Assembly: GCA_025289735.1 (NCBI GenBank)
Contig: GCA_025289735.1_4764.3
From: a phage
Length of the DNA: 17,548 nucleotides
Direction: 5' to 3' (one strand)
The notes beneath the pieces are model-generated. The model was not told the DNA's origin. It did no database searches and was given only the letters and a program-made list of their open reading frames with translations. A program made the translations under genes and the position numbers. This document shows positions 1 through 10,722 of this stretch, in pieces (position 1 is the first letter of the stretch; the number at the start of each line of letters is the position of its first letter).

Positions 1-36
1 ATACTCGGAACTATAACTAATTTTTGAGGTTACTTT

Positions 37-1527
37 ATGGCAGATTTGAAACATGGATCTACTGTAGGCGGATCTCCCATTTGGACGCAAGGAAACTTGA
101 CGATCCAGCCAGCGGGGGATCAGCTTTTCTACAAAGGTCATAAAATCTATACCGCTTTTGATAAACCTTCGGCTGCCGATTTTGATGCTGTTAGTGCATC
201 CGAAGGTGGCACATTTCAAAAGCAAGTTCATTTCGAGGAAGGTTTAAGCGTAGGTAGCGCATCGGCTGGAGAAACCAAAAAGAACGGGATCTTTAAAGGA
301 AATAGTGATGCGGCTAACTTTGATGGTGTAAGTTGGGGTTTCCATTCGTGGAAATCTATTGGTTTTGTTAATGCTCGTGATGATGTTATCATGGCTTATA
401 TTGACACTACCACAGGTGATTTTAAAACTAAAGGGACTATCGAAGGGACAACCATTAAAGACACAGGTCAACGCGTCTATAGCCCTGTTAATAAACCAAC
501 GAATAATGATTTAGATTTGGTGTCTCGTCGCGGTGATACCCTCACAGGAACATATAATTTAAACACTGTCACTGTTAAACTATCGGTTGATTCGAAATTA
601 ATTGCAAGGGAACGTGATTTAATTAATTTTGATGCGACTAAGATCTATTATGGTAACGTTCTTGATACGTTGGTCTTCCGAAGTAAAGATGAGCCTACCA
701 TTTTTGTTAATGGCAGAGAAGGTCGTTTTTATCACACCAACAATAAACCAACTAAAGCCGATGTTGGGCTAGGCAATGTCACCAATGATGCACAGGTTAA
801 ACGTGCTGGTGATATTATGGTAGGTAACTTGCAAGCGCCTAGAATGTTGGCGACAAACGATCCTGCTGGTCCTAATGAATTGGTTCGTTTGAGCTACTTT
901 GAGAGAAAATCAATGGTAGCAAATCCAACCATCATTGGAAACGTTGATTGGAACACTCTTATTAATCGCGGTATCTATCGTGTGGAAAATGCTGGGTCAG
1001 GTACTAATAAACCGTCTGATAGCTATTATAACGGCGTTTTGATGGTATATCGCCCAGAAGATGCGGTCGGTACTCGTCGAATTGTTCAGGTGTATTATCC
1101 TGAATCTATTGACCATCCGATGTGCTGGCGTTCGTGTTCTAATGAATCATGGACTGCATGGAACTATGTAGATCACCGTAAATTGGCTGATATTCGCTAT
1201 GTTAACGTCACTGGCGATACCATGACAGGACCGTTAACTGTTCCGGCTGCAAACGGTGTTAGAACGGCTAGAGGTGCATATAATGGTGATAACTACTATG
1301 CCGGGTTAAATAGTGCTGACGGCACGGCTATGATTCACCGTATCAGCGATATTAAAGCCACTGAAAAATTGGGTATTACACATGATTCGAAAGCTGTTTT
1401 CGTTAAATCGCGTGGAAATACTCAAGCCACAGACCGCTATGAACTTTACCACGAAGGGCATAAACCTACCCCTGCCGAAGTTGGTGCGGTTCCACTTAAT
1501 GCGGTGATTGATTTTGGTACTTTCTAA
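37..1527 (+). CDS. 36: Long tail fiber protein, gp36-like (496 aa)
   Basis: ATG at 37 with GAGGT 7 nt upstream. N-terminus MADLKHGSTVGGSPIWTQGN resembles my recollection of the T4 gp36/gp37 N-terminal family. Repeated fibre-type motifs (VYSPVNKPTNNDLDL, FYHTNNKPTKADVGLGNV, YHEGHKPTPAEVGA). Sits immediately upstream of the gp37-like gene. Much longer than T4 gp36 (about 220 aa). Confidence 0.75.
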   Translation: MADLKHGSTVGGSPIWTQGNLTIQPAGDQLFYKGHKIYTAFDKPSAADFDAVSASEGGTFQKQVHFEEGLSVGSASAGETKKNGIFKGNSDAANFDGVSWGFHSWKSIGFVNARDDVIMAYIDTTTGDFKTKGTIEGTTIKDTGQRVYSPVNKPTNNDLDLVSRRGDTLTGTYNLNTVTVKLSVDSKLIARERDLINFDATKIYYGNVLDTLVFRSKDEPTIFVNGREGRFYHTNNKPTKADVGLGNVTNDAQVKRAGDIMVGNLQAPRMLATNDPAGPNELVRLSYFERKSMVANPTIIGNVDWNTLINRGIYRVENAGSGTNKPSDSYYNGVLMVYRPEDAVGTRRIVQVYYPESIDHPMCWRSCSNESWTAWNYVDHRKLADIRYVNVTGDTMTGPLTVPAANGVRTARGAYNGDNYYAGLNSADGTAMIHRISDIKATEKLGITHDSKAVFVKSRGNTQATDRYELYHEGHKPTPAEVGAVPLNAVIDFGTF

Positions 1528-1531
1528 TTTT

Positions 1532-1558
1532 AGCGGGGATTATCTCCCCGCTTTTCTA
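1532..1558 (+). terminator. Rho-independent terminator or attenuator after the gp36-like gene
   Basis: Hairpin AGCGGGGA-ttatc-TCCCCGCT directly followed by TTTTCT, 5 nt after the stop codon at 1525..1527. Confidence 0.6.
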
Positions 1559-1597: not shown

Positions 1598-4500
1598 ATG
1601 GCAGATTTAAGCAGAATCCAATTTAAACGCACTAGCACTAAAGGTCGTAAACCTGATGCTAGTACGATGAATCCGGGGGAATTGGCAATCAACCTTGCGG
1701 ATCAATATCTTCTTACTAAAAATGATTCCGGTGCTATTATCAATTTAAGTTGTCCTCCGGTGTATGACCGCGATGTTACAATGGCGGGTAAGGTTAAAGG
1801 AAATAATTATATTTTAAGCAAAACCGCCAACTATCTGGAAGATCAGACAGCGCGAGATCTTAACTACTTTGGTGCTTTCCGTACCAATGGTCTTGATGGT
1901 TTTCTCGAACTAACGCTAAACGTTCCTCATTCTTCCGGTATTCAACATGGTCGAGGATTTACTTTCCAGTATGGACACCTTGGATCGCGTGTAGAAACTT
2001 ATGGTTATAATAAAGAAGGACAAAAAGCATTTAGTTATAAAATGTATCATGAAGGGGATAAACCAACTCCAGGAGAATTGAACGTCTATAGCAAACAAGA
2101 AGTAGATCGGATGTTCCAAAAGACACTTGATTTTGGAATTGAGTCCGGTTGGTTTAAAATCGCTACAGTATATCTACCACAACAATATGGGCGTAGTGCT
2201 AAAATTAGATTGGTTGGTGGTAATGGTTATAATGTAGGACAGACCGGGCAAGCTAATATTATTGAATTGGTTCTGCGTAGCGGGAATGGAAATCCGGTTG
2301 GTGTTGTGTTTAACGCTTATATGACCATCTGGTATATAGACCAGAAGTTTTGTGCTATTCCTACTGGTGGTGACTCTTATGATATATACGGTAGCTATTC
2401 CGGTCATACTGGATTTGTGTTGGCTGAATACCAGACTAGCCCTGACGTTAACCTGACTTTATATGATAACCCACAATTTATAGGAAGTCAATTACCGGAA
2501 GCTGAAACAAAGTTCGATGCTTATACAATCACTTCATTTAGTACTTATCGCAACCACGGGACATTAAATTTTGGTGCTAATTCTCAAGGCCAATATGACA
2601 TTGAGCATTTGAACGAACAACCGACAAATGCTAAAAAGATGTTGCGTCGCTTCCGTAGTTGTGCTCCTGCCACTATCTGGCATGAGACAGTTGATGATAA
2701 CCAGTATCGTCTTGCTACTGGATACGAAGATACAAATCAGGAATTATTGCTGACAGCAACATCCGGGTTACATGTCAAGAAATTAACATTGGATGGCGGT
2801 GTCACTGGAAATTCTGGTATTGATATTCGTCGAGGACCAAACGAAGCAAGCCATTTTAATTTTATGGATTATCGCACTGGACAAGATGTTCGTAATGGCT
2901 GGTTTGGCTTCGGTGATGGTCAGACCAAAGATTTTATTTGGTGGAACGATAACGGTCAAAACTCATTAAATCTTTTAGAAAACGGTGAATTACAGATTTC
3001 TGGTGGTAAAGGCCAGAAAATTGTAATGAATAGCGAAGTTGCATTATCTGAAAATGCTCGTTTGGCTGTTAGAGGTGGTAATTATGGCGTGATATTCCGT
3101 AATGATGGAACGAACTTTCATCTGCTTACTACCGATTTAAAAGATTCTTTTGGAAATTGGAATAATCGTAGACCATTTAGTTATGACTTTGCCGAAGGTG
3201 GATTGGATCTAGGTGGCACAACGACCGCACGTTGTTTGCATCTGGGAATTGATGGTAGTACCCGTATCGAGGATAACTTAGTTTTCAGGGCGGGATCTCG
3301 TCAATCAATGGACTACTTAGAATTTGTTCATTGGGGGGCAAGTAATACCGGACGTAATAACGTTTTAAGTCTTCGTGACTCAAAAGGATTTTTAGCAGAA
3401 TTTGAACGTAAAGGTGATAACACCATTCAAAATACATTCTTCGGAAGATTTAAAGTCAATGGTGGTTCTAACGCTATTACCGTTAATGCTCCTACTGATT
3501 CCGAGTCTGTTTATGTGAAAGGTACTTGTAACGATGTAGATAACTGGTATATAGGTAAAGGTGGTGCTGATAATGCATTAGCCTTTTATAGCTATAAGTC
3601 TAATGCGGCTATTTATCTCACAAATAATGGTGAGGTTTTATTAGCCCCACAAAACACCGCAATTGTTAACGTCAATCGCGACCGTATACACATCAACGGT
3701 ACACAGTGGGTGGCAAATCAGCCACATGGCTGGGGTAATCAGTGGCTGTCCGAAGCGCCTATATTCGTTGATTTTGGTACTGGTATTCCAAATGATACCT
3801 ATATGCCAATCATTAAAGCCCGTAGCCAAATTACTGGCGGTTATGCAACTAAGGCCGATTTTGGTATATATCGTCATGGTACTGATACTTGGGGTGATGC
3901 TGTTATTCGTGTCGGTTCTGCCGAAAGTGGTGATAGTAATCATCCAAACGCAATTTATACTTTCCGGGCAAATGGCGATTTTAAAGCTCCGGCTGGCCTC
4001 CGTGCTGGTGTTAACTTGGGTGTTGGTACTGATCCTGTATTGGGTGGACATTCTATTGCTATCGGTGATAATGACACTGGCTTAGTGTGGGGTGGTGATG
4101 GTCGTATTAACATGTTTGCTAACGGACAGCATATTGCATCATGGGGTACGATGTATCAAGAACACTCAGGACTATGGGGAAGTCATGGTGGTTTGTGGAC
4201 AGAAGTCGATAAAGCGATTATTTCTCATGGTCATCTAGTCCAGGCGAATGACAACTATTCTACATATGTTCGTGACATTTATATCCGTTCGGATATTCGC
4301 GTGAAGAAAGACCTAGTTAAATTTGAAAATGCATCTAAGACACTTTCAAAAATTAACGGTTACAAATATCTTCAAAAGCGCGGGACCAATGAAGACGGTA
4401 GCGAACGTTGGGAAGAAAACGCTGGTTTGATTGCTCAGGAAGTTCAAGCTATTTTGCCGGAATTGGTTGAAGGCGATCCAGATAGCGAAAACCTTCTTCG

Positions 4501-4636
4501 TTTGAACTATAACGGTGTTATTGGTTTAAATACTGCGGCAATCAACGAACACACCGAAGAAATTGCACTTCTTAAAGAAGAAAATAAACTTCTTCGTGAT
4601 CGTCTTGCTGCAATTGAAGCAAAATTATTTGGTTAA
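1598..4636 (+). CDS. 37: Long tail fiber distal subunit, gp37-like (1012 aa), with C-terminal intramolecular chaperone domain
   Basis: ATG at 1598 with AAGGA upstream. N-terminus MADLSRIQFKRTSTKGRKPDASTMNPGELAINLADQYLLTKNDSGAIINL parallels recalled T4 gp37 (MATLKQIQFKR...GELAINL...TKDDSGNIIDL). Length matches T4 gp37 (about 1026 aa). Gly/Asn/Thr-rich fibre composition. C-terminal about 114 aa begin with the S-D-x-R-x-K motif. Confidence 0.9.
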   Translation: MADLSRIQFKRTSTKGRKPDASTMNPGELAINLADQYLLTKNDSGAIINLSCPPVYDRDVTMAGKVKGNNYILSKTANYLEDQTARDLNYFGAFRTNGLDGFLELTLNVPHSSGIQHGRGFTFQYGHLGSRVETYGYNKEGQKAFSYKMYHEGDKPTPGELNVYSKQEVDRMFQKTLDFGIESGWFKIATVYLPQQYGRSAKIRLVGGNGYNVGQTGQANIIELVLRSGNGNPVGVVFNAYMTIWYIDQKFCAIPTGGDSYDIYGSYSGHTGFVLAEYQTSPDVNLTLYDNPQFIGSQLPEAETKFDAYTITSFSTYRNHGTLNFGANSQGQYDIEHLNEQPTNAKKMLRRFRSCAPATIWHETVDDNQYRLATGYEDTNQELLLTATSGLHVKKLTLDGGVTGNSGIDIRRGPNEASHFNFMDYRTGQDVRNGWFGFGDGQTKDFIWWNDNGQNSLNLLENGELQISGGKGQKIVMNSEVALSENARLAVRGGNYGVIFRNDGTNFHLLTTDLKDSFGNWNNRRPFSYDFAEGGLDLGGTTTARCLHLGIDGSTRIEDNLVFRAGSRQSMDYLEFVHWGASNTGRNNVLSLRDSKGFLAEFERKGDNTIQNTFFGRFKVNGGSNAITVNAPTDSESVYVKGTCNDVDNWYIGKGGADNALAFYSYKSNAAIYLTNNGEVLLAPQNTAIVNVNRDRIHINGTQWVANQPHGWGNQWLSEAPIFVDFGTGIPNDTYMPIIKARSQITGGYATKADFGIYRHGTDTWGDAVIRVGSAESGDSNHPNAIYTFRANGDFKAPAGLRAGVNLGVGTDPVLGGHSIAIGDNDTGLVWGGDGRINMFANGQHIASWGTMYQEHSGLWGSHGGLWTEVDKAIISHGHLVQANDNYSTYVRDIYIRSDIRVKKDLVKFENASKTLSKINGYKYLQKRGTNEDGSERWEENAGLIAQEVQAILPELVEGDPDSENLLRLNYNGVIGLNTAAINEHTEEIALLKEENKLLRDRLAAIEAKLFG
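4292..4633 (+). other. Predicted C-terminal intramolecular chaperone domain of gp37 (peptidase S74-like), putative autocleavage after Ser898
   Basis: Sequence ...YIRS|DIRVKKDLVKFENASKTLSKINGYKYL...LLKEENKLLRDRLAAIEAKLFG. The S-D-x-R-x-K start and coiled-coil C-terminal tail match the pattern I recall for endosialidase / T5 pb1-type self-cleaving chaperone domains. Confidence 0.6.
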
Positions 4637-4644
4637 TTTAAATG

Positions 4645-4662
4645 GCGGGGAGAAATCCCCGC
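4645..4662 (+). other. Stable stem-loop (GCGGGGA-GAAA-TCCCCGC) between gp37 and the downstream gene, no U-tract
   Basis: 7-bp GC-rich stem with a GNRA-type GAAA tetraloop 9 nt after the gp37 stop. Followed by TAAGGATCTT (the RBS of the next gene) rather than a T-run, so more likely an RNA stability or processing element than a terminator. Confidence 0.5.
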
Positions 4663-4674
4663 TAAGGATCTTAA

Positions 4675-4971
4675 ATGGGCTATTGGGTAAGTAATGAACA
4701 AGACACTAAAATAGATGCTGTAAAATGGCATGTTTTTGATATTCCTAATGGATATGTTCCCGGTCGTGCTGGTGTTGCCGTTTTGCGGCATACCGCTCGT
4801 GATGGTTGGGGCGATATGCATATTTCCGTTGACGGTGTGGTCGCCGCGCGTCGTCGTGGTGGTGGGGATTGGGGATTTACGGTTAATGCGTTTGTTCCTG
4901 CTGGATGTACTGTCACCTTTGGTCATGGGGGTGTCGGTGGTATTGAATACTTTAAATTTATGGAGTTTTAA
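4675..4971 (+). CDS. Small Gly/Trp-rich protein, paralog A of a tandem triplet (98 aa)
   Basis: ATG with AAGGA 6 nt upstream. Shares MGYWV...FDIPNG...GGGD...G-T-T pattern with the two downstream ORFs. Confidence 0.65.
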   Translation: MGYWVSNEQDTKIDAVKWHVFDIPNGYVPGRAGVAVLRHTARDGWGDMHISVDGVVAARRRGGGDWGFTVNAFVPAGCTVTFGHGGVGGIEYFKFMEF

Positions 4972-4973
4972 TT

Positions 4974-5279
4974 ATGGCTGGTTGGGTTGCTGGAAGAATG
5001 GCTAATGCTATTAGCATTTATGCTAATGGCGGCTGGTTTGGTATCCCTAATGGTTGGGTTACTGATTCATGCGGTATTGTGTCTGTTCATGCCGAAGCCG
5101 TTGGCGGTGGAGGTGACTTGGACGCCGAATTATATGTAAACGGTACTCTAGAATCAGGTCATCACGCTGGTAATGCCGGAAGTTGGGGAGCTAGTTCTTT
5201 AGTTGGTGTTGGTGCTACTGTCAGTTTTAGCATTGGTAAAGGAAGTTTAAACCACTTCCAATTTAGGAGAATGCATTAA
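4974..5279 (+). CDS. Small Gly/Trp-rich protein, paralog B of a tandem triplet (101 aa)
   Basis: ATG 2 nt after the stop of paralog A, GGAG 8 nt upstream. Motifs GWFGIPNGW and GGGGD shared with paralogs A and C. Confidence 0.65.
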   Translation: MAGWVAGRMANAISIYANGGWFGIPNGWVTDSCGIVSVHAEAVGGGGDLDAELYVNGTLESGHHAGNAGSWGASSLVGVGATVSFSIGKGSLNHFQFRRMH

Positions 5280-5578
5280 TGGGATATTGGGTGTATGGCG
5301 TTTTAGACAATAAAGCCGGTAAAGCGAATCAGGGATGGTTTGATATTCCTAACGGTTGGACAGCCGACGCTTTCGGTACGGTTTCATTTGGTGCTCATTC
5401 TTCTGGTGGTGGTGGTGACTCAGAATTGCTTTTGCATGGCTTTTGTGTGTCTGGAAGTCATAAGGGTCATGATTGGGGACAGATCCATTCTTGTATTGTG
5501 CCGCAGGGAGTAACGATCACGGTAACTACAAACAGGGGCATTTCCCATCTTCGTTATAGACGCCAGAGCAACCGTTAA
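5279..5578 (+). CDS. Small Gly/Trp-rich protein, paralog C of a tandem triplet (99 aa)
   Basis: Start overlaps the stop of paralog B (TAATG). AGGAGA 8 nt upstream. Motifs MGYWV, GWFDIPNGW, GGGGD. Confidence 0.65.
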   Translation: MGYWVYGVLDNKAGKANQGWFDIPNGWTADAFGTVSFGAHSSGGGGDSELLLHGFCVSGSHKGHDWGQIHSCIVPQGVTITVTTNRGISHLRYRRQSNR

Positions 5579-5629
5579 AAAGAATTAAGGAAACCTCCCA
5601 CGGAAGGGAACTACTAAGGAGAAACGGCT

Positions 5630-5869
5630 ATGGTCTATAATATCGTCATTGGTGCTTTGTCTAATTTCGGAATGAAACTATTGTCAAAGTTAATTAGTGA
5701 AAAGATGCTCACTAAAATCTTCTTCTATTGCGCTCGTCGTCTTGCGGCTTATACCAATACGCCAATTGATGATCGTTTTGTGGAAGAACTTTATAAGGAG
5801 TTTAATAAAGATCAGTTAGAAGATAGCAACGAGCAAAATAAAAATAGTGATAGTCAAGTACCTAAATAA
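5630..5869 (+). CDS. Hypothetical protein (79 aa) between the fibre module and the holin
   Basis: ATG with AAGGAG 8 nt upstream. Hydrophobic/amphipathic N-terminus and acidic, low-complexity C-terminus. No family recognised. Confidence 0.5.
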   Translation: MVYNIVIGALSNFGMKLLSKLISEKMLTKIFFYCARRLAAYTNTPIDDRFVEELYKEFNKDQLEDSNEQNKNSDSQVPK

Positions 5870-5902
5870 GAGTACACTGTCATAGTTATCTTAGGGCATT
5901 AT

Positions 5903-6559
5903 ATGCAAGTTTCTGAAAAAGGGAAAGACTTTGCTATCTCAAATGTCCTGCGCGCTATTTTCACAACTAAAAGCACGGAGTTGCTCGTACTTCGTGTTTT
6001 TGCTGCCGTCGTGTTGTCCATATTAGCATTTGTCGTTTATAGTAAAAACGAGTTATTTGCCTTGTATAAAGAGACTCGTTATGAGACTTATGCTCACGTT
6101 CTCCAGGTAGAGAAAGACCGCAATTTTGATAATGCAGCACAGGAGCAGTTACAGATAGTTCATGTGTCGGCTGATGCCGATTTTTCTGCTGTTTTTAGTT
6201 TTCGTCCGAAAAACCTAAACTATTTTGTTGATTTGGTGGCATATGAAGGAAAGCTACCGCATACAATCGATGAAAAAAATTTAGGTGGATTCCCTATCAA
6301 TAAAACGAGTGAAGAATATCGTAGGCATCTTTTAGGTAAATCATATTTTACCGATAAAGATTTCCAGTATATTCCATCAAGAGAAAAGAAATTAGAGAGT
6401 ATCGATATAGGGTTTATGTATTCTTGCCCTATATTCAATCTCGATAATGTCTATTCTGGTAGTATCGCCATTGCGTGGAAGAATAAACCGGATATTGACA
6501 TTGAGAATTTAGATACTCTTTGCAATCAATCTGCCAGAATCCTCGGAAGGATTAGATAA
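5903..6559 (+). CDS. t: Holin, T4 t-type (218 aa)
   Basis: Same length as T4 holin T. Single TMD (LVLRVFAAVVLSILAFVVY) after a short N-terminal region, then a large C-terminal domain. Several blocks match my recollection of T4 T: EQLQIVH, ADFSAVxSFRPKNLNYFVD, AYEGKLP, MYSCPxFNLDNxYxG, ARILGR. Confidence 0.9.
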   Translation: MQVSEKGKDFAISNVLRAIFTTKSTELLVLRVFAAVVLSILAFVVYSKNELFALYKETRYETYAHVLQVEKDRNFDNAAQEQLQIVHVSADADFSAVFSFRPKNLNYFVDLVAYEGKLPHTIDEKNLGGFPINKTSEEYRRHLLGKSYFTDKDFQYIPSREKKLESIDIGFMYSCPIFNLDNVYSGSIAIAWKNKPDIDIENLDTLCNQSARILGRIR

Positions 6560-6564
6560 CTTAA

Positions 6565-6597
6565 AGGGGAAGCCTTTCGGCCTCCCCTTCTTTTTAT
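6565..6597 (+). terminator. Rho-independent terminator after holin t
   Basis: 10-bp stem AGGGGAAGCC / GGCCTCCCCT (one mismatch), loop TTTC, followed by TCTTTTTA. Confidence 0.7.
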
Positions 6598-6842
6598 TGG
6601 AGCATAGAAGCCCCTGAATCACATTTTGACGCTGTATGATGAAAACAGGTAGCGTACCAGTCATCGGCTTGTTTGTCTTCGTCAGAAAACGCGTAATTGC
6701 GTTGTATGCCGTTTTCTACTTTGACCAGTGCAATAGCTGTTTCTGGAAGATCAATCAATCGGACAAAATCACCGTCTTCCCACTCCACACGGGCAATATC
6801 ATAGCCCATCTCAAAGTATACAATCGCTTGTTCTAATTTCAT
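6594..6842 (-). CDS. Hypothetical early protein (82 aa)
   Basis: ATG overlaps the upstream stop (ATGA). Last gene of the minus-strand array, ending at the t terminator. Confidence 0.5.
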   Translation of the reverse strand: MKLEQAIVYFEMGYDIARVEWEDGDFVRLIDLPETAIALVKVENGIQRNYAFSDEDKQADDWYATCFHHTASKCDSGASMLQ

Positions 6843-7162
6843 TCTGGAAACTTCCCGTAAACATTCTCTGCCAGCTTACGTGCATCTTTTACAATATCTT
6901 TCATGTAATGACTATAATTTTTAGCTAGATCAATGATGCAATCAACAAAGAAGTAATAGCGTCGCAGTGCTACCAGCTCAACATCTTCAAGATGACCATT
7001 TTCTCCAATCGCTGAAATATGTTTAAATTCCTTTCGGATCGCGTCCATCGCTACATTAACTTCTTTTATAATATCTTTCGTATTATATGCACCTCGACTA
7101 ATCAAAATTTTGGTTAGGTCTTCTGCTTTTTCGTGAAAGTTGTCAATTTCAAACTCGATCAT
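6839..7162 (-). CDS. Hypothetical early protein (107 aa), paralog of 7277..7609
   Basis: Track start at 7168 is a GTG lying inside the SD GAGGTGA. ATG at 7160..7162 with that SD 5 nt upstream is the likelier start. C-terminus ...ARKLAENVYGKFPE resembles the neighbour's ...ARIMTENIFGKF. Confidence 0.55.
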   Translation of the reverse strand: MIEFEIDNFHEKAEDLTKILISRGAYNTKDIIKEVNVAMDAIRKEFKHISAIGENGHLEDVELVALRRYYFFVDCIIDLAKNYSHYMKDIVKDARKLAENVYGKFPE

Positions 7163-7276
7163 AATCACCTCTCATGGTTTAACGCTGTTGTGTCAACATT
7201 TTTTCGTGGTTTGCTAATTCTATACATTGTAATAGCATAACCAGTGCAATTTTCAATGATTCATCATCTTTCATAA

Positions 7277-7609
7277 TCAAAATTTACCGAAAATATTCTC
7301 TGTCATAATTCTTGCTTCGTCGATTATTTTCGTCATGTTCATGGTGTAGTTATGATCATTTAGTGCCTTAATAACAACGAGCAAGGAATCTAAAAACACT
7401 CGATACCGTGTATATTCTACGCTATTTGTGAATACCGATGTTTTCTCGACTTTATCGATCAGATAGCCTAAAACCGATAGCGCCTCGTTTACTTCCCTTG
7501 TTACTTTATCGGCGCTAAAAAGCACCGGATAAAGGCGCGGTGTGATTAACCGCGCTGCCTCTTTCAATTCGGTCGCTTTCCATGATTCATATTTGTCATA
7601 GTTAAACAT
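7277..7609 (-). CDS. Hypothetical early protein (110 aa), paralog of 6839..7162
   Basis: ATG with AAGGAGA 8 nt upstream. Shared blocks EVN-A, RY--F-D, ARxxxENxxGKF with the downstream neighbour. Confidence 0.55.
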   Translation of the reverse strand: MFNYDKYESWKATELKEAARLITPRLYPVLFSADKVTREVNEALSVLGYLIDKVEKTSVFTNSVEYTRYRVFLDSLLVVIKALNDHNYTMNMTKIIDEARIMTENIFGKF

Positions 7610-7621
7610 TGTATAATCTCC

Positions 7622-7954
7622 TTACAGATGAAAACCTGTTACAATCACCGCATCGATCATACCGCTAGGAATAAACGGTTCACCCTCTTTTATTTCAACT
7701 TTGAATTGATGCCATTTCGCTAATACTTCTTCCGGTACACCCAGCGATTCGGCGTCTGCTTTAGTTTCATCCATAATCCAACTAGGCTGCATGAGAGCAT
7801 AGTTTACATAGTCCATTTCTGGGGTCATGTCATCAATGTTAATATATTTGCAGTTGACGCGTTTCAGAATTTCAAATTCTTTATTATCAACCTGTACCAT
7901 GTACAATTCGGTAGTTTCTGGAATCAGTTCCCATACAATCAGTACATTTTTCAT
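7622..7954 (-). CDS. Hypothetical early protein (110 aa)
   Basis: ATG with GAGGTGA upstream, overlapping the stop of the preceding gene. Tight operon packing. Confidence 0.55.
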   Translation of the reverse strand: MKNVLIVWELIPETTELYMVQVDNKEFEILKRVNCKYINIDDMTPEMDYVNYALMQPSWIMDETKADAESLGVPEEVLAKWHQFKVEIKEGEPFIPSGMIDAVIVTGFHL

Positions 7955-7962
7955 AGTTCACC

Positions 7963-8331
7963 TCACTTAACAAAGATTTTCTTTAATGCTTTCAGGATCG
8001 TTGCTTCCGGCGCTTCTTCCGGTGGAGGAAGCAATTCTACCACTTCCTCTTCCAACTCGATATAGTCTACCAGATATTCTACATAGAATGCAAGTGCTTC
8101 CATGAAATTAGATGCTACATCCGATTCACCACACGCGCCTACATGCATTGTATAAACATCACTGCGATCAAGTTTGTGGATACTGCCTAGATAGTTTCGG
8201 TTATACCAGACTTCCCACACTTTCAGCTTTCCGGTTTTGGTTGCTGTTTTATAATCGGTTTCGTAGTGGTGCAATTGACGTTGCAGATCATTGATAATAA
8301 CACATTTTTCGTAATTGTTTTGAATTTCCAT
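7963..8331 (-). CDS. Hypothetical early protein (122 aa), acidic Pro-rich C-terminus
   Basis: ATG with GAGGAT upstream. C-terminus ELEEEVVELLPPPEEAPEA. Confidence 0.55.
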   Translation of the reverse strand: MEIQNNYEKCVIINDLQRQLHHYETDYKTATKTGKLKVWEVWYNRNYLGSIHKLDRSDVYTMHVGACGESDVASNFMEALAFYVEYLVDYIELEEEVVELLPPPEEAPEATILKALKKIFVK

Positions 8332-8341
8332 GATGTAATCC

Positions 8342-8533
8342 TCACTTATCGTTAAGAAGATCTAAAACTTTCTGTCGTACTTTGTCAATATTAGTTGATT
8401 CAAAAACTGTACGGTATCCCCAGCTTTGACCGTATGAGCGGTTGCAATCTCCATATCCCCATTGTTCAACCTGATAGTATTCAAGGAATGGATGCTGCCG
8501 AACTATGATACCATCGCGGTTAAAAATTACCAT
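8342..8533 (-). CDS. Hypothetical early protein (63 aa)
   Basis: ATG with GAGGA 7 nt upstream. Trp/Tyr/Gly-rich small protein. Confidence 0.45.
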   Translation of the reverse strand: MVIFNRDGIIVRQHPFLEYYQVEQWGYGDCNRSYGQSWGYRTVFESTNIDKVRQKVLDLLNDK

Positions 8534-8556
8534 AATATAATCCTCACGTCAACAAC

Positions 8557-8838
8557 TTATTTTCGGTTATACTTCTGCCACTTTCGGTAATACTGCTTGT
8601 AATATTGTTTAATGTTTGGTGGTTCGTCACTATACATGTTATCAACCATCATGTCAATAAGACCTTCCGGTGTTTGATAGTTACCCGCTCGAATGAGTTC
8701 CTTAATCAAAAGATCTTGCGTCGCTTTATACTTGACAATAACAACTGTCTTTTCTGCCTTTCCAATTCCGATCCGGTCGTTAGCTCTCATAGCATCCCAC
8801 CAATCTTTTTTAAACTTCATGTTGTTAAATTTCATCAT
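8557..8838 (-). CDS. Hypothetical early protein (93 aa), basic Tyr/Lys-rich C-terminus
   Basis: Two consecutive ATG codons with AAGAAGGG upstream, overlapping the stop of the 266-aa gene. Confidence 0.5.
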   Translation of the reverse strand: MMKFNNMKFKKDWWDAMRANDRIGIGKAEKTVVIVKYKATQDLLIKELIRAGNYQTPEGLIDMMVDNMYSDEPPNIKQYYKQYYRKWQKYNRK

Positions 8839-9639
8839 TTAACCCTTCTTATATTCGCAAACATATTGAGTACCATAATCATAGCTAATGCGACCTTTCT
8901 CGATGACTTCAAAGCGGATTTCATCGTTTTCCCCTACCCACATTTTGTACTCGTTGAAGTATCCTGCTACATCCGGTTTGCTCATACCAACAACCATATT
9001 TTTATATTGTTTGCTGCGTGTCAGATTTGATTTAAACACTTCGCGCTCATCAACATATACGAAAGAAGACAATTCACCTTCGGTCATGGTCATTTTCAGC
9101 TTGCCGCCCTTGTTGCCATAAGTAGAGTTGCCATACAATGGATCTTTGCGGCTGTCTGTTTCAATACCATCAATGATTTTCCATGTAAATTTTGCAATGC
9201 ACTGGTAAGTGATAGATCCAGAGATTTTCTCTTCTTTCTTCTGTTCTTCCACCACTTTTTCTTCCTGTTTCGGTTGTTCTTCTTCAACCTTCACAGAAGT
9301 CTCTGAATCGCTTTCTGACGCGGTTTCTTCTTTAGGTAATACATTCATCAAGTTTTGGATTTGAGCGTGATATACAGCCTCCAGTGGCTGAATTTTCCCG
9401 ATATTGATCATTGTATCACGAACAGTTTTATTCCAGTTGCGTTGCTCTTGTTTCAGAGACGGATCAATCTTAACAGCCTTAACATATACTTCATGAAGTT
9501 TAGAATCAAGTGCGGAGATAGACTCATTAGCACAAATAAACTTCTCTGATTTGGTAGTAGCTTTAGCGCAATCAAAGGACGCAGCATTAGCACCGAAAGC
9601 AGTAGCAGAAAGAACGATAGCAGCGATAATGTTTTTCAT
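8839..9639 (-). CDS. Secreted protein with N-terminal LprI/DUF1311-like domain, charged linker and C-terminal beta-rich domain (266 aa)
   Basis: ATG with GAGGAA 8 nt upstream, directly downstream of promoter cassette P3. Signal peptide MKNIIAAIVLSATAFGANA|AS. Then FDCAKATTKSEKFICANESISALDSKLHEVY...QEQRNWNKTVRD, fitting the DUF1311 pattern as I recall it (C..A.T..E..IC...LD..L..Y...Q..W...RD). E/K-rich linker. C-terminal domain with two Cys and an SGSITY motif. Confidence 0.7.
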   Translation of the reverse strand: MKNIIAAIVLSATAFGANAASFDCAKATTKSEKFICANESISALDSKLHEVYVKAVKIDPSLKQEQRNWNKTVRDTMINIGKIQPLEAVYHAQIQNLMNVLPKEETASESDSETSVKVEEEQPKQEEKVVEEQKKEEKISGSITYQCIAKFTWKIIDGIETDSRKDPLYGNSTYGNKGGKLKMTMTEGELSSFVYVDEREVFKSNLTRSKQYKNMVVGMSKPDVAGYFNEYKMWVGENDEIRFEVIEKGRISYDYGTQYVCEYKKG

Positions 9640-9673
9640 AATATATTCCTCAGTGTTTTGTCTTGATGGTAGT

Positions 9674-9702
9674 ATGTTACTACTCCCTTAATCCGGTGTC
9701 AA
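9674..9702 (-). promoter_or_regulatory. Sigma70-like early promoter P3 (-35 TTGACA, 17-nt spacer, -10 TAACAT)
   Basis: Minus-strand sequence aaaaagtagTTGACA-N17-TAACAT, about 35 nt upstream of the ATG at 9639. A-rich upstream element. Shares a conserved leader with the other cassettes. Confidence 0.6.
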
Positions 9703-9709
9703 CTACTTT

Positions 9710-9865
9710 TTAAATTTCTTCTACAGTAAAGTCTTCAATGTTGTTGTGCTCGGAGAACGTTGCCAGACCAGCATTCCATGCATCATCCTCAGAGAAGAAT
9801 ACACCGTAACGTTCATATCCCTTAGCGCCTTCAAATTTAACCATTAATTTGTGAGTATGTTTCAT
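9710..9865 (-). CDS. Hypothetical early protein (51 aa), acidic
   Basis: ATG at 9863..9865 with AAGGAG 7 nt upstream, downstream of P4. The track ORF start at 9898 lies inside the promoter. Confidence 0.5.
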   Translation of the reverse strand: MKHTHKLMVKFEGAKGYERYGVFFSEDDAWNAGLATFSEHNNIEDFTVEEI

Positions 9866-9896
9866 TTTGATTCTCCTTAGTTGTCTTGATGAGTTC

Positions 9897-9925
9897 ATTA
9901 TAGGGGATCACCGATCCCCTGTCAA
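9897..9925 (-). promoter_or_regulatory. Sigma70-like early promoter P4 (-35 TTGACA, palindromic 17-nt spacer, -10 TATAAT)
   Basis: Minus-strand GTTGACA-GGGGATCGGTGATCCCC-TATAAT. The spacer is a perfect inverted repeat containing two GATC sites. Confidence 0.6.
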
Positions 9926-9933
9926 CAACTATT

Positions 9934-10146
9934 TTAATGTTTACCCACGCGTAAATTAATGCGCATTTTCTGCATAGCCATGATCTGGTTTACTGCTTCT
10001 TCTTTACGTTCTTGCGTGATAACGTGACCAGATTCCGCAAACTCTCCCGCAACTTCTTCTACAATCTCGCGAACTTGAGAACGTCCAAAGATGCGGTTTC
10101 CTTCGTAGCTCATAAATTCAGTCACTACTTGCTCAATAGATTTCAT
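9934..10146 (-). CDS. Hypothetical early protein (70 aa)
   Basis: ATG with AAGGAG 7 nt upstream, downstream of P1. Confidence 0.55.
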   Translation of the reverse strand: MKSIEQVVTEFMSYEGNRIFGRSQVREIVEEVAGEFAESGHVITQERKEEAVNQIMAMQKMRINLRVGKH

Positions 10147-10178
10147 GTGATTCTCCTTCTTTCGTTTGGTATGGGAGT

Positions 10179-10207
10179 ATATTACTACTCCCGTTTCTTT
10201 ACGTCAA
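10179..10207 (-). promoter_or_regulatory. Sigma70-like early promoter P1 (-35 TTGACG, 17-nt spacer, -10 TAATAT)
   Basis: Minus-strand ctaaaaaccaGTTGACG-N17-TAATAT followed by the conserved leader ATACTCCCATACCAAAC and the RBS. Confidence 0.6.
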
Positions 10208-10214
10208 CTGGTTT

Positions 10215-10457
10215 TTAGAAATTTTTCGCTTCTTCTTCGGTAATCATAACCGCGCATTCGTGCATAACTTTGAAAACCGGATCAATCATGTCGAATGCTT
10301 CGCGGGACAGTTTACGAGAAGCGATTTTGATTGCTTCAACGTCTTCGACTACAGGAACAAAAACAGTTTTCAGTTCATCGAGAACGGCAGCTTCTTTTTC
10401 ATTCAGGAAGATCCCAGCGTCGTACAGTGCAACTTCGATAACATTAACTTTAACCAT
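10215..10457 (-). CDS. Hypothetical early protein (80 aa), acidic
   Basis: ATG at 10455..10457 with GGAGGAAA upstream, downstream of P2. The track N-terminal extension is a translation of the promoter. Confidence 0.55.
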   Translation of the reverse strand: MVKVNVIEVALYDAGIFLNEKEAAVLDELKTVFVPVVEDVEAIKIASRKLSREAFDMIDPVFKVMHECAVMITEEEAKNF

Positions 10458-10491
10458 TTTTATTTCCTCCAGTTCGTTTCGGTATGGGAGT

Positions 10492-10520
10492 ATAATACTA
10501 CCGATGACCTTTGGCGTCAA
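10492..10520 (-). promoter_or_regulatory. Sigma70-like early promoter P2 (-35 TTGACG, 17-nt spacer, -10 TATTAT)
   Basis: Minus-strand acaaaaaactaGTTGACG-N17-TATTAT followed by the conserved leader ATACTCCCATACCGAAAC. Overlaps the 3' end of the upstream gene. Confidence 0.6.
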
Positions 10521-10722
10521 CTAGTTTTTTGTTATTTTCGTGAAAATTTTTCGTCGCCTCATGTGCTTTTCGCTGGGCTTCTTGTTGTGCTTGCTGGCGT
10601 GCTGCCTCTTGCGATGCCATAACAGACGCATTTGCAGCAGTTACAGCCGCGACCATCGCTGCGGTATTAGCATTTACCGTACATGCACTAGCCAGCAAAG
10701 CAATTGCAATCATTTTCTTCAT
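10498..10722 (-). CDS. Small secreted protein or lipoprotein (74 aa) with Gln/Ala-rich helical mature region
   Basis: ATG with AAGGGG 6 nt upstream, overlapping the upstream stop (ATGA). N-terminus MKKMIAIALLASAC has a lipobox-like LASAC; an alternative signal peptidase I site lies at VNA|NT. Mature part QEAARQQAQQEAQRKAHEATK. Confidence 0.6.
   Translation of the reverse strand: MKKMIAIALLASACTVNANTAAMVAAVTAANASVMASQEAARQQAQQEAQRKAHEATKNFHENNKKLVDAKGHR

What the first reader, a model, noticed from the sequence alone, without database searches (positions are those of the whole stretch)
37..1527. gp36-like fibre protein is about twice the T4 length
At 496 aa against about 220 aa for T4 gp36 (as I recall), it is either an expanded gp36 or a fusion with part of the hinge protein, implying a different fibre knee architecture. 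The gp35 and gp34 equivalents would lie upstream of the window.
Basis: partly seen in the sequence, partly recalled or inferred. Interest (0 to 1): 0.35.

Follow-up and report, generated by a model that had tools for sequence, protein, structure and literature searches.

The report
Long gp36 tail-fibre protein of RB49-like phages
This is the ordinary, already annotated gene 36 tail-fibre protein of RB49-like (Krischvirus) coliphages, which is 496 residues in every member of the genus because extra shaft repeats and a pyocin-type knob domain sit between the conserved T4-like ends, not because it is fused to the hinge protein gp35.

Summary
Window 37..1527 (+) is an intact 496-aa ORF whose first ~170 residues are 39% identical to T4 gp36, which is 221 aa. 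It is not an artefact: 59 Krischvirus genomes, including RB49, Phi1, JSE and KFS-EC, encode the same 496-aa protein at 88-99.6% identity. RB49's copy is annotated "36". A lineage only 50% identical keeps 492 aa.

The gp35-fusion idea fails. There is no similarity to T4 gp35, and relatives encode a separate normal-length gp35 (374-379 aa) just upstream.

The protein is an expanded gp36:
- Both ends are conserved: MADLK.GST.GG at the N-terminus and ...DFG[TY][FY] at the C-terminus. By analogy with T4 these would be the gp35 and gp37 docking ends (inferred).
- Between them lie two copies of a widespread fibre repeat (GDTMTG ... YHxGxKPTxxDVG), at aa 158-252 and 383-488.
- There is also one pyocin-type knob domain at aa ~295-382. 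It matches the R2 pyocin fibre 6CL6 by profile (E 9e-14) and by model (TM 0.66, rmsd 2.6 Å).

The Serratia phage WSPA homologue extends the same plan to 1004 aa. The knee is probably unchanged and the upper shin is longer.

This is known biology; only the domain breakdown adds detail. Low interest.

The parts
26..29 (+). Shine-Dalgarno GAGG, 7 nt before the ATG of gene 36
   Evidence: Read directly from the sequence. The start codon is confirmed by the conserved MADLK N-terminus shared with T4 gp36.
37..1527 (+). Gene 36 (small distal long-tail-fibre subunit, 'hinge connector distal connector'), 496 aa plus stop codon
   Evidence: It is 99.2% identical to KFS-EC gp36, 99.0% to JSE and 94.8% to RB49 gene '36'. 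phrog_16472 matches 1-496 of 496.
37..486 (+). aa 1-150: T4-gp36-like N-terminal domain, inferred to be the gp35/knee-side adaptor
   Evidence: 39% identity to T4 gp36 (E 1e-31). PF03903 covers aa 57-153. The first ~26 residues are nearly invariant (M1-K5, G7-S13, I15-L21 and Q24-A26 are invariant columns) among homologues down to 50% identity. The same ~49-73 residue N-terminal motif heads the distal fibre proteins of Pseudotevenvirus CfP1.
508..792 (+). aa 158-252: shaft repeat unit B (GDTLTG ... FYHTNNKPTKADVG), absent from T4 gp36
   Evidence: A profile built from aa 383-496 hits aa 158-252 of P0001, a 92%-identical gp36 homologue with the same numbering, at 39.8 bits. The reciprocal profile hits aa 382-488 at 70.6 bits. 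The motif at aa 230-265 is 67-75% identical to many other fibre proteins. This is the most variable stretch among homologues.
787..918 (+). aa 251-294: counterpart of the T4 gp36 C-terminal segment (GDxMxGNLxAP ... RL/RF), here internal; predicted helix at aa 281-291
   Evidence: BLASTP to T4 gp36 172-215, 34% identity, E 7e-6. BLASTP to Slopekvirus BL02 gp36 165-216, E 1.4e-4. Helix from the AF2 models.
919..1182 (+). aa 295-382: pyocin-type knob domain
   Evidence: A 64-sequence profile hits R2 pyocin fibre 6CL6 at E 9e-14, 6CL5 at 1.2e-12 and 6CT8 at 5e-11. The domain-only AF2 model has pLDDT 86.6. Foldseek gives 6CL6 TM 0.66 and rmsd 2.6 Å, and 6CT8 TM 0.64 and rmsd 2.3 Å. It is the only part of the full-length monomer model with pLDDT mostly above 70 (aa 300-379).
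1183..1500 (+). aa 383-488: shaft repeat unit C (GDTMTGPLTVP ... LYHEGHKPTPAEVGA)
   Evidence: The same unit occurs up to ~20 times in giant fibre proteins. It is 35% identical to a stretch of Yersinia phage JC221 annotated as 'proximal tail fiber subunit' (H67).
1480..1524 (+). aa 482-496: VGAVPLNAVIDFGTF, the conserved C-terminal tail, inferred to be the gp37-docking end
   Evidence: Almost invariant across 50-92% identical homologues. Six of the seven gp36-position proteins compared end in DFG[TY][FY] whether they are 215, 217, 221, 496 or 1004 aa (T4 DFGYY, EcS1 DFGTY, PG7 DFGTY, WSPA DFGTF); Acj133 (219 aa) ends in the variant DYGEF, and BL02 (222 aa) in DFGSY.
1532..1557 (+). Terminator-like hairpin AGCGGGGA-ttatc-TCCCCGCT followed by TTTTCT, between genes 36 and 37
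   Evidence: A terminator is annotated at the equivalent place in several relatives.
1598..4636 (+). Gene 37 (large distal subunit, 1012 aa), the partner that gp36 joins. Its N-terminus IQFKR...GELAINL is conserved with T4 gp37. It carries Gp34_trimer, gp37_trimer and a C-terminal Peptidase_S74 chaperone.

Best explanation
The ORF is gene 36 of a Krischvirus (RB49-like, T4-type coliphage). [quoted passage not shown] It is a modularly expanded gp36. The two ends match T4 gp36: an N-terminal domain (aa 1-150) that in T4 is the side bound by the gp35 knee protein, and a C-terminal ...DFGTF tail that in T4 joins the N-terminus of gp37. Between these ends the Krischvirus lineage carries about 275 extra residues made of standard tail-fibre building blocks. 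These are one extra shaft repeat (aa 158-252), one pyocin-type knob domain (aa ~295-382) and a second shaft repeat (aa 383-488). The likely consequence is that gp36 contributes about one third of the distal half-fibre chain (496 of ~1400-1500 residues) rather than the ~one sixth it contributes in T4. That adds beads and rod to the shin just below the knee and moves the gp36-gp37 joint distally, while the knee itself (gp34 C-terminus, gp35, gp36 N-terminus) is unchanged. Shown here: the homology, the domain composition, conservation across the genus, and a separate gp35 in relatives. Inferred: trimeric state, docking roles of the two ends, and the effect on fibre geometry.
For: Identity and length: (59 genomes, all 496 aa; RB49 gene '36'). 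T4-like ends: aa 1-171 at 39% identity, E 1e-31; aa 251-294 matching T4 172-215; DFG-type C-terminus in gp36 proteins of 215-1004 aa; conserved gp37 N-terminus. End conservation among 50-92% identical homologues. No gp35 content: with separate gp35 genes of 374-379 aa upstream in JSE, KFS-EC, WSPA and a metagenomic lineage. Repeat units. Knob. Same plan extended to 1004 aa in Serratia phage WSPA, colinear over the whole 496 aa (30% identity, E 7e-64). T4 assembly order and gp36 share of the fibre: Leiman et al. 2010, PMC3004832. Plasticity of the long-tail-fibre locus, including RB49: Trojet et al. 2011, PMC3157838.
Against: No structure of any gp36 is in the PDB copy searched, so the docking roles of the two termini rest on T4 genetics and biochemistry plus conservation. 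The full-length monomer model is poor (pLDDT 41.7). The trimer was not modelled. The repeat-unit relationship (aa 158-252 against aa 383-488) is seen only with profiles built on a small, biased local set of 267 proteins, and self-BLAST finds nothing. Summed gp36 + gp37 length is 1416-1508 aa in Krischvirus. That overlaps phages with a short gp36 (1059-1464 aa), so a net lengthening of the fibre is not demonstrated. The gene upstream of this particular window is not visible.
Confidence: 0.85

Rival explanations
1. gp35-gp36 fusion: part of the hinge (knee) protein has been fused onto gp36, giving a different knee.
For: Only the doubled length.
Against: There is no similarity to T4 gp35 (best E 0.77). 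gp35 is encoded separately at normal length (374-379 aa) directly upstream of the 492-496-aa gp36 in JSE, KFS-EC and a 50%-identical lineage, and upstream of the 1004-aa homologue in WSPA. The extra residues are instead accounted for by fibre repeat units and a pyocin-type knob.
Confidence: 0.02
2. Sequencing or assembly artefact: a frameshift or read-through joins two genes into one 496-aa ORF.
For: None beyond the unusual length.
Against: The same uninterrupted ORF occurs in 59 independently sequenced genomes, in metagenomic clusters at 50-92% identity, and as a full-length PHROG family. Substitutions relative to JSE and KFS-EC are mostly third-position and synonymous along the whole frame.
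Confidence: 0.01
3. Boundary shift rather than net expansion: the distal half-fibre is about the same size as in other T4-like phages, and material that elsewhere belongs to the N-terminal part of gp37 is simply encoded in gene 36 here, so the gp36/gp37 joint sits further down the shin.
For: gp36 + gp37 sums to 1416-1508 aa in Krischvirus, against 1464 aa in Slopekvirus BL02 and 1247 aa in T4. In WSPA a 1004-aa gp36 is paired with a short 533-aa gp37. In Pseudotevenvirus the gp36 N-terminal motif heads single-chain distal fibres.
Against: There is no detectable similarity between aa 172-496 and T4 gp37 (best E 0.24), so it is not a simple transfer of T4-type gp37 sequence. The window's gp37 is still 1012 aa. 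The sums range from 1059 to 1537 aa, so the total is not tightly conserved. This rival is compatible with the main explanation and differs only over the net effect on fibre length.
Confidence: 0.3
4. The inserted knob is a functional accessory carbohydrate-binding site that gives the fibre a second, lateral contact with LPS or O-antigen, rather than a purely structural bead.
For: The domain is homologous to the knobs of R1/R2 pyocin fibres. Knob2 of those fibres has been proposed to contribute to target binding (review PMC11871291). RB49-like phages can use O antigens as alternative primary receptors (PMC9569957).
Against: That paper attributes receptor recognition to gp38 at the fibre tip. 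The residues conserved in the knob are those of the family's structural core. The knob is well conserved across Krischvirus phages whose gp37 and host range differ, unlike a specificity determinant. No binding data exist.
Confidence: 0.1

Closest known systems
gp36 of Escherichia phage RB49 (AY343333 / NC_005066, gene '36', hinge connector of long tail fiber distal connector) and other Krischvirus phages (Phi1, JSE, GEC-3S, KFS-EC)
   Same: Same gene: 496 aa, 88-99.6% amino-acid identity, same position before gene 37.
   Different: Only a few substitutions. The variable parts of this genome lie in gp37 and the small ORFs after it, not in gp36.
T4 gp36 (NP_049862, 221 aa; Pfam PF03903)
   Same: N-terminal ~170 residues 39% identical. 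Its C-terminal segment and DFG-aromatic tail are recognisable. Its neighbour gp37 has the same conserved N-terminus.
   Different: T4 lacks the shaft repeat at aa 158-252, the knob at aa 295-382 and the repeat at aa 383-488. The T4 protein is 2.2 times shorter.
1004-aa 'putative tail fiber protein' in the gp36 position of Serratia phage WSPA (Muldoonvirus)
   Same: Colinear with the whole 496-aa protein over its first ~503 residues (30% identity, E 7e-64), including the knob. It ends in ...ELDFGTF and is preceded by a separate 379-aa gp35.
   Different: It carries about 500 further residues of modules before the C-terminal tail, and is followed by a much shorter gp37 (533 aa).
Knob domains of Pseudomonas aeruginosa R1/R2 pyocin fibres (PDB 6CL5, 6CL6, 6CT8)
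   Same: Homologous fold and sequence profile for aa ~295-382: E 9e-14, TM 0.66, rmsd 2.6 Å, 23% identity.
   Different: In pyocin fibres two knobs sit just above the receptor-binding foot at the distal tip. Here a single knob sits inside the knee-proximal subunit, far from the receptor-binding end.

Membership tests
T4 gp36 family (Pfam PF03903 Phage_T4_gp36; small distal long-tail-fibre subunit) | Sequence match to the family model and to T4 gp36 itself | tested here: met
   PF03903 scores 26.5 bits against a gathering cutoff of 26, which is marginal, over aa 57-153. BLASTP to T4 gp36 gives 39% identity over aa 1-171, E 1e-31.
T4 gp36 family | Gene position between gene 35 and gene 37 in the long-tail-fibre cluster | tested here: met
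   gp37 follows directly in the window. gp34 and gp35 precede the orthologue in JSE, KFS-EC and contig L010. The region upstream of this window itself is not visible.
T4 gp36 family | Conserved termini: MADLK.GST.GG..IW at the N-terminus and a D[FY]G-x-aromatic C-terminus | tested here: met
   shared by T4, EcS1, PG7, Acj133 (variant DYGEF), BL02 and WSPA.
T4 gp36 family | Size of about 215-222 aa, typical of the Tevenvirinae members examined and of Slopekvirus BL02 | tested here: not met
   496 aa here against 215-222 aa in T4, EcS1, PG7, Acj133 and BL02. Length is typical of the family rather than defining: WSPA has 1004 aa.
T4 gp36 family | Homotrimer in the virion that binds the gp37 N-terminus and then monomeric gp35 | not testable with these tools
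   Known for T4 only (PMC3004832). Neither a multimer prediction nor proteomics was available.
gp35 (long tail fibre proximal connector / knee protein) | Sequence similarity of any part of the ORF to gp35 | tested here: not met
   BLASTP against T4 gp35 gives best E 0.77. No PHROG or Pfam gp35 family appears among the hits.
Pyocin-type knob domain (R1/R2 pyocin fibre knobs) | Profile-level sequence homology to solved knob domains | tested here: met
   Profile A2 hits 6CL6 at E 9e-14 (chain residues 130-211, with a weaker hit at 46-119), 6CL5 at 1.2e-12 and 6CT8 at 5e-11. The single sequence alone finds nothing in the PDB, and NCBIfam finds nothing for it. NCBIfam also returned no family for four E. 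coli proteins that NCBI itself names 'pyocin knob domain-containing', so this library appears to lack a model for the domain.
Pyocin-type knob domain | Same fold | tested here: met
   The AF2 domain model has pLDDT 86.6. Foldseek gives 6CL6 TM 0.66 and rmsd 2.6 Å over 97 columns, 6CT8 TM 0.64 and rmsd 2.3 Å, and Pa193 fibre TM 0.60.
PHROG 16472 (tail fiber protein) | Full-length match to the family profile | tested here: met
   1160 bits, aa 1-496 against profile positions 1-496 of 496.

The most novel reading that the evidence does not exclude
The knob and extra shaft repeats near the knee are not inert spacer. They might provide a second, lateral glycan contact for the fibre. Alternatively, by moving the gp36-gp37 joint distally (the region where the fibritin N-terminus is thought to bind in T4), they might change how the fibres are held retracted and released in RB49-like phages.
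Probability: 0.1. Interest if true: 0.4.

Novelty: already known. Interest (0 to 1): 0.12.

Why it matters
It matters little beyond annotation. The result shows that gp36 is an extensible adaptor with fixed ends and a variable number of generic fibre modules: 215-222 aa in Tevenvirinae and Slopekvirus, 496 aa in Krischvirus, 1004 aa in Muldoonvirus. That is useful when labelling tail-fibre genes, when modelling fibre geometry, or when engineering chimeric long tail fibres, because the conserved ends are the natural splice points. It does not reveal a new kind of knee or a new mechanism.

Tried and rejected
- BLASTP of the ORF against T4 gp35, gp37 and gp34 found nothing significant. This rejects a fusion with gp35 and a simple transfer of T4 gp37 or gp34 sequence.
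- Single-sequence phmmer against PDB sequences gave only a chance WxL hit at E 0.33, so no gp36 homologue was found among solved structures.
- NCBIfam gave no hit for the ORF, nor for E. coli proteins that NCBI names 'pyocin knob domain-containing'. This library therefore cannot test knob membership.
- Pfam scans of ten distant knob-containing hits found no Pfam family over the knob region.
- Self-BLAST for internal repeats found none. The repeats are visible only at motif and profile level.
- The full-length AF2 monomer was poor (pLDDT 41.7), as expected for a trimeric fibre. Only the knob was usable.
- The profile of the shaft repeat against the PDB gave only weak hits: 8JOV at 7e-4, Mu fibre protein S at 1.5e-3, and a gp34 entry at 0.16. 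The fold of the repeat is therefore unassigned.
- Literature searches found no text that comments on the RB49 gp36 length. Trojet 2011 draws the RB49 fibre locus in a figure that is not held. Efimov 2022 deals only with gp37 and gp38.

Full report
**What is there**

Window 37..1527 (+) is an uninterrupted ATG-initiated ORF of 496 codons with GAGG 7 nt upstream. It is followed by a terminator-like hairpin at 1532-1557. After that comes a 1012-aa ORF at 1598..4636 that carries Gp34_trimer, gp37_trimer and a C-terminal Peptidase_S74 chaperone, which makes it gene 37.

The window comes from a Krischvirus, a T4-type coliphage of the RB49, Phi1, JSE and KFS-EC group.

**Checking the observation**

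The gp36 assignment is sound:
- aa 1-171 align to T4 gp36 1-184 at 39% identity (E 1e-31).
- aa 251-294 align to T4 gp36 172-215 (E 7e-6).
- Pfam PF03903 just passes its cutoff, at 26.5 against 26 bits.

- tblastn finds the same single-piece ORF, covering 1-496 (1-492 in three records), in 59 phage genomes at 88-99.6% identity. These include RB49 itself, where the gene is annotated '36: hinge connector of long tail fiber distal connector'.
- PHROG 16472 matches positions 1-496 of a 496-position profile.
- Metagenomic homologues at 50-65% identity are 492-508 aa.
- Substitutions relative to JSE and KFS-EC are overwhelmingly third-position (18 of 22 and 22 of 25) along the whole frame.

The length is therefore real, selected, and the norm for the genus.

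**Is it a gp35 fusion?**

No. BLASTP against T4 gp35 gives nothing (best E 0.77). The relatives also encode a separate gp35 of normal size immediately upstream:
- JSE and KFS-EC have gp34 of 1246 aa, gp35 of 379 aa and gp36 of 496 aa.
- A metagenomic lineage whose gp36 is only 50% identical has gp34 of 1244 aa, gp35 of 374 aa, gp36 of 492 aa and gp37 of 841 aa.
- T4 gp35 is 372 aa.

There is also no significant similarity to T4 gp37 or gp34.

**What the extra residues are**

Both ends of the protein are the T4-like ends.
- The N-terminus MADLK.GST.GG..IW.QGN is shared by all gp36 proteins examined.
- The extreme C-terminus is also shared: T4 ...QDFGYY, EcS1 ...IDFGTY, PG7 ...QDFGTY, BL02 ...IDFGSY, window ...IDFGTF.
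- Among homologues spanning 50-92% identity, these two ends are the most conserved parts. The first ~26 residues and the last 15 (VGAVPLNAVIDFGTF) are nearly invariant, whereas aa ~176-230 are the most variable.

The increase in length therefore lies between fixed ends. Motif scanning shows three GD[TI][ML]xG motifs (aa 166, 258, 393) and four [FY]xxxxKP[ST]xx[DE] motifs (aa 37-49, 148-158, 231-243, 470-482).

An exhaustive HMMER search with aa 267-496 found 404 proteins. Their matches fall into two widespread modules.

The first is a ~90-residue globular domain at aa ~287-397.
- It recurs up to eight times in tandem in other fibre proteins.
- It is present in E. coli prophage fibres that NCBI names 'pyocin knob domain-containing'.
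- A 64-sequence profile of this domain hits the R2 and R1 pyocin fibre crystal structures: 6CL6 at E 9e-14, 6CL5 at 1.2e-12 and 6CT8 at 5e-11.
- The domain-only AlphaFold model is confident, with pLDDT 86.6.
- That model superposes on the pyocin knob: 6CL6 at TM 0.66 and rmsd 2.6 Å, 6CT8 at TM 0.64 and rmsd 2.3 Å.
- It was also the only confidently predicted part of the full-length monomer model.

The second is a ~100-residue shaft unit running from GDTMTG to YHxGxKPTxxDVGA, at aa 383-488.
- It occurs up to about 20 times in giant fibre proteins.
- Profiles show that aa 158-252 is a second copy of the same unit. The scores, measured on the 92%-identical homologue P0001, were 39.8 bits one way and 70.6 bits the other.
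- These E-values come from a small local database and self-BLAST sees nothing, so this step is weaker than the knob assignment.

The resulting architecture is:
- gp36 N-domain (aa 1-150)
- shaft repeat B (aa 158-252)
- T4-C-terminus-like segment with a helix (aa 251-294)
- knob (aa 295-382)
- shaft repeat C (aa 383-488)
- DFGTF tail

**Comparative support**

The protein in the gp36 position of Serratia phage WSPA (Muldoonvirus) is 1004 aa.
- Its first ~503 residues are colinear with the entire 496-aa protein, knob included (30% identity, E 7e-64).
- It continues with further modules and again ends in ...ELDFGTF.
- It is preceded by a separate 379-aa gp35 and followed by a short 533-aa gp37.

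In Pseudotevenvirus CfP1 the gp36 N-terminal motif heads two complete distal fibre proteins of 756 and 813 aa, each ending in an S74 chaperone.

gp36 is thus an extensible adaptor: 215-222 aa in T4, EcS1, PG7, Acj133 and BL02, 496 aa in Krischvirus, and 1004 aa in Muldoonvirus.

**How it most likely works**

The N-terminal domain, the C-terminal tail, the gp37 N-terminus (IQFKR...GELAINL) and a separate gp35 are all conserved. I therefore infer that the same assembly logic and the same knee apply here. The added repeats and knob would lengthen the gp36 segment of the shin to roughly a third of the chain and move the gp36-gp37 joint distally.

Whether the whole distal half-fibre is longer is not settled. 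gp36 + gp37 sums to 1416-1508 aa here, against 1059-1464 aa in phages with a short gp36 and 1537 aa in WSPA. A partial 'boundary shift' reading therefore remains open.

A functional role for the knob, such as glycan binding as proposed for pyocin Knob2 (PMC11871291), is possible but unsupported. Receptor recognition in RB49-like phages is attributed to gp38 at the fibre tip (PMC9569957).

**Novelty and verdict**

The gene, its length and its gp36 label have been in GenBank since the RB49 genome (AY343333) and form a PHROG family. The plasticity of this locus, including RB49, was described by Trojet et al. 2011 (PMC3157838). I found no text that comments on the length or gives the domain breakdown, so the knob-plus-repeat decomposition is a small annotation-level addition.

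The finding is real but ordinary. The 'expanded gp36' reading is right. The 'gp35 fusion' and 'different knee' readings are not supported.

Noticed in passing
window 4675-5578 (+): Three small tandem ORFs (98, 101 and 99 aa) lie between gene 37 and the conserved 79-aa ORF and holin. Only 3 of 59 Krischvirus records (G2248, UPWr_E1, G37-3) carry this stretch. None matches a PHROG family of known function. They occupy the slot where T4 has gene 38.
   Followed up: partly
window 1598-4636 (+), especially beyond ~2115: Gene 37 is mosaic. Most Krischvirus genomes match the window at DNA level only up to about position 2115 (the first ~170 aa of gp37), and the rest matches only a few phages. The protein combines Gp34_trimer, gp37_trimer and a self-cleaving Peptidase_S74 chaperone.
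   Followed up: partly
window 1532-1557 (+): A G+C-rich hairpin (AGCGGGGA / TCCCCGCT) followed by a T-run lies between genes 36 and 37, so it resembles an intrinsic terminator inside the late fibre operon. Several relatives annotate a terminator at the same place.
   Followed up: no
L008 (Citrobacter phage CfP1, Pseudotevenvirus) 2033-8442: Two tandem distal-fibre genes (756 and 813 aa) each start with the gp36 N-terminal motif and end in an S74 chaperone. They follow an enlarged gp35-like gene (528 aa). This suggests two alternative single-chain distal half-fibres.
   Followed up: partly
L004 (Serratia phage WSPA, Muldoonvirus) 6001-10677: The gp36-position protein is 1004 aa and is paired with a short 533-aa gp37 and a 302-aa assembly catalyst. 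This is the opposite split of the distal half-fibre from T4.
   Followed up: partly
window 5903-6559 (+): A 218-aa T-type holin (phrog_860, E 4e-88) sits at the position of the holin gene in T4, JSE and KFS-EC, which confirms T4-like synteny downstream of the fibre genes.
   Followed up: yes
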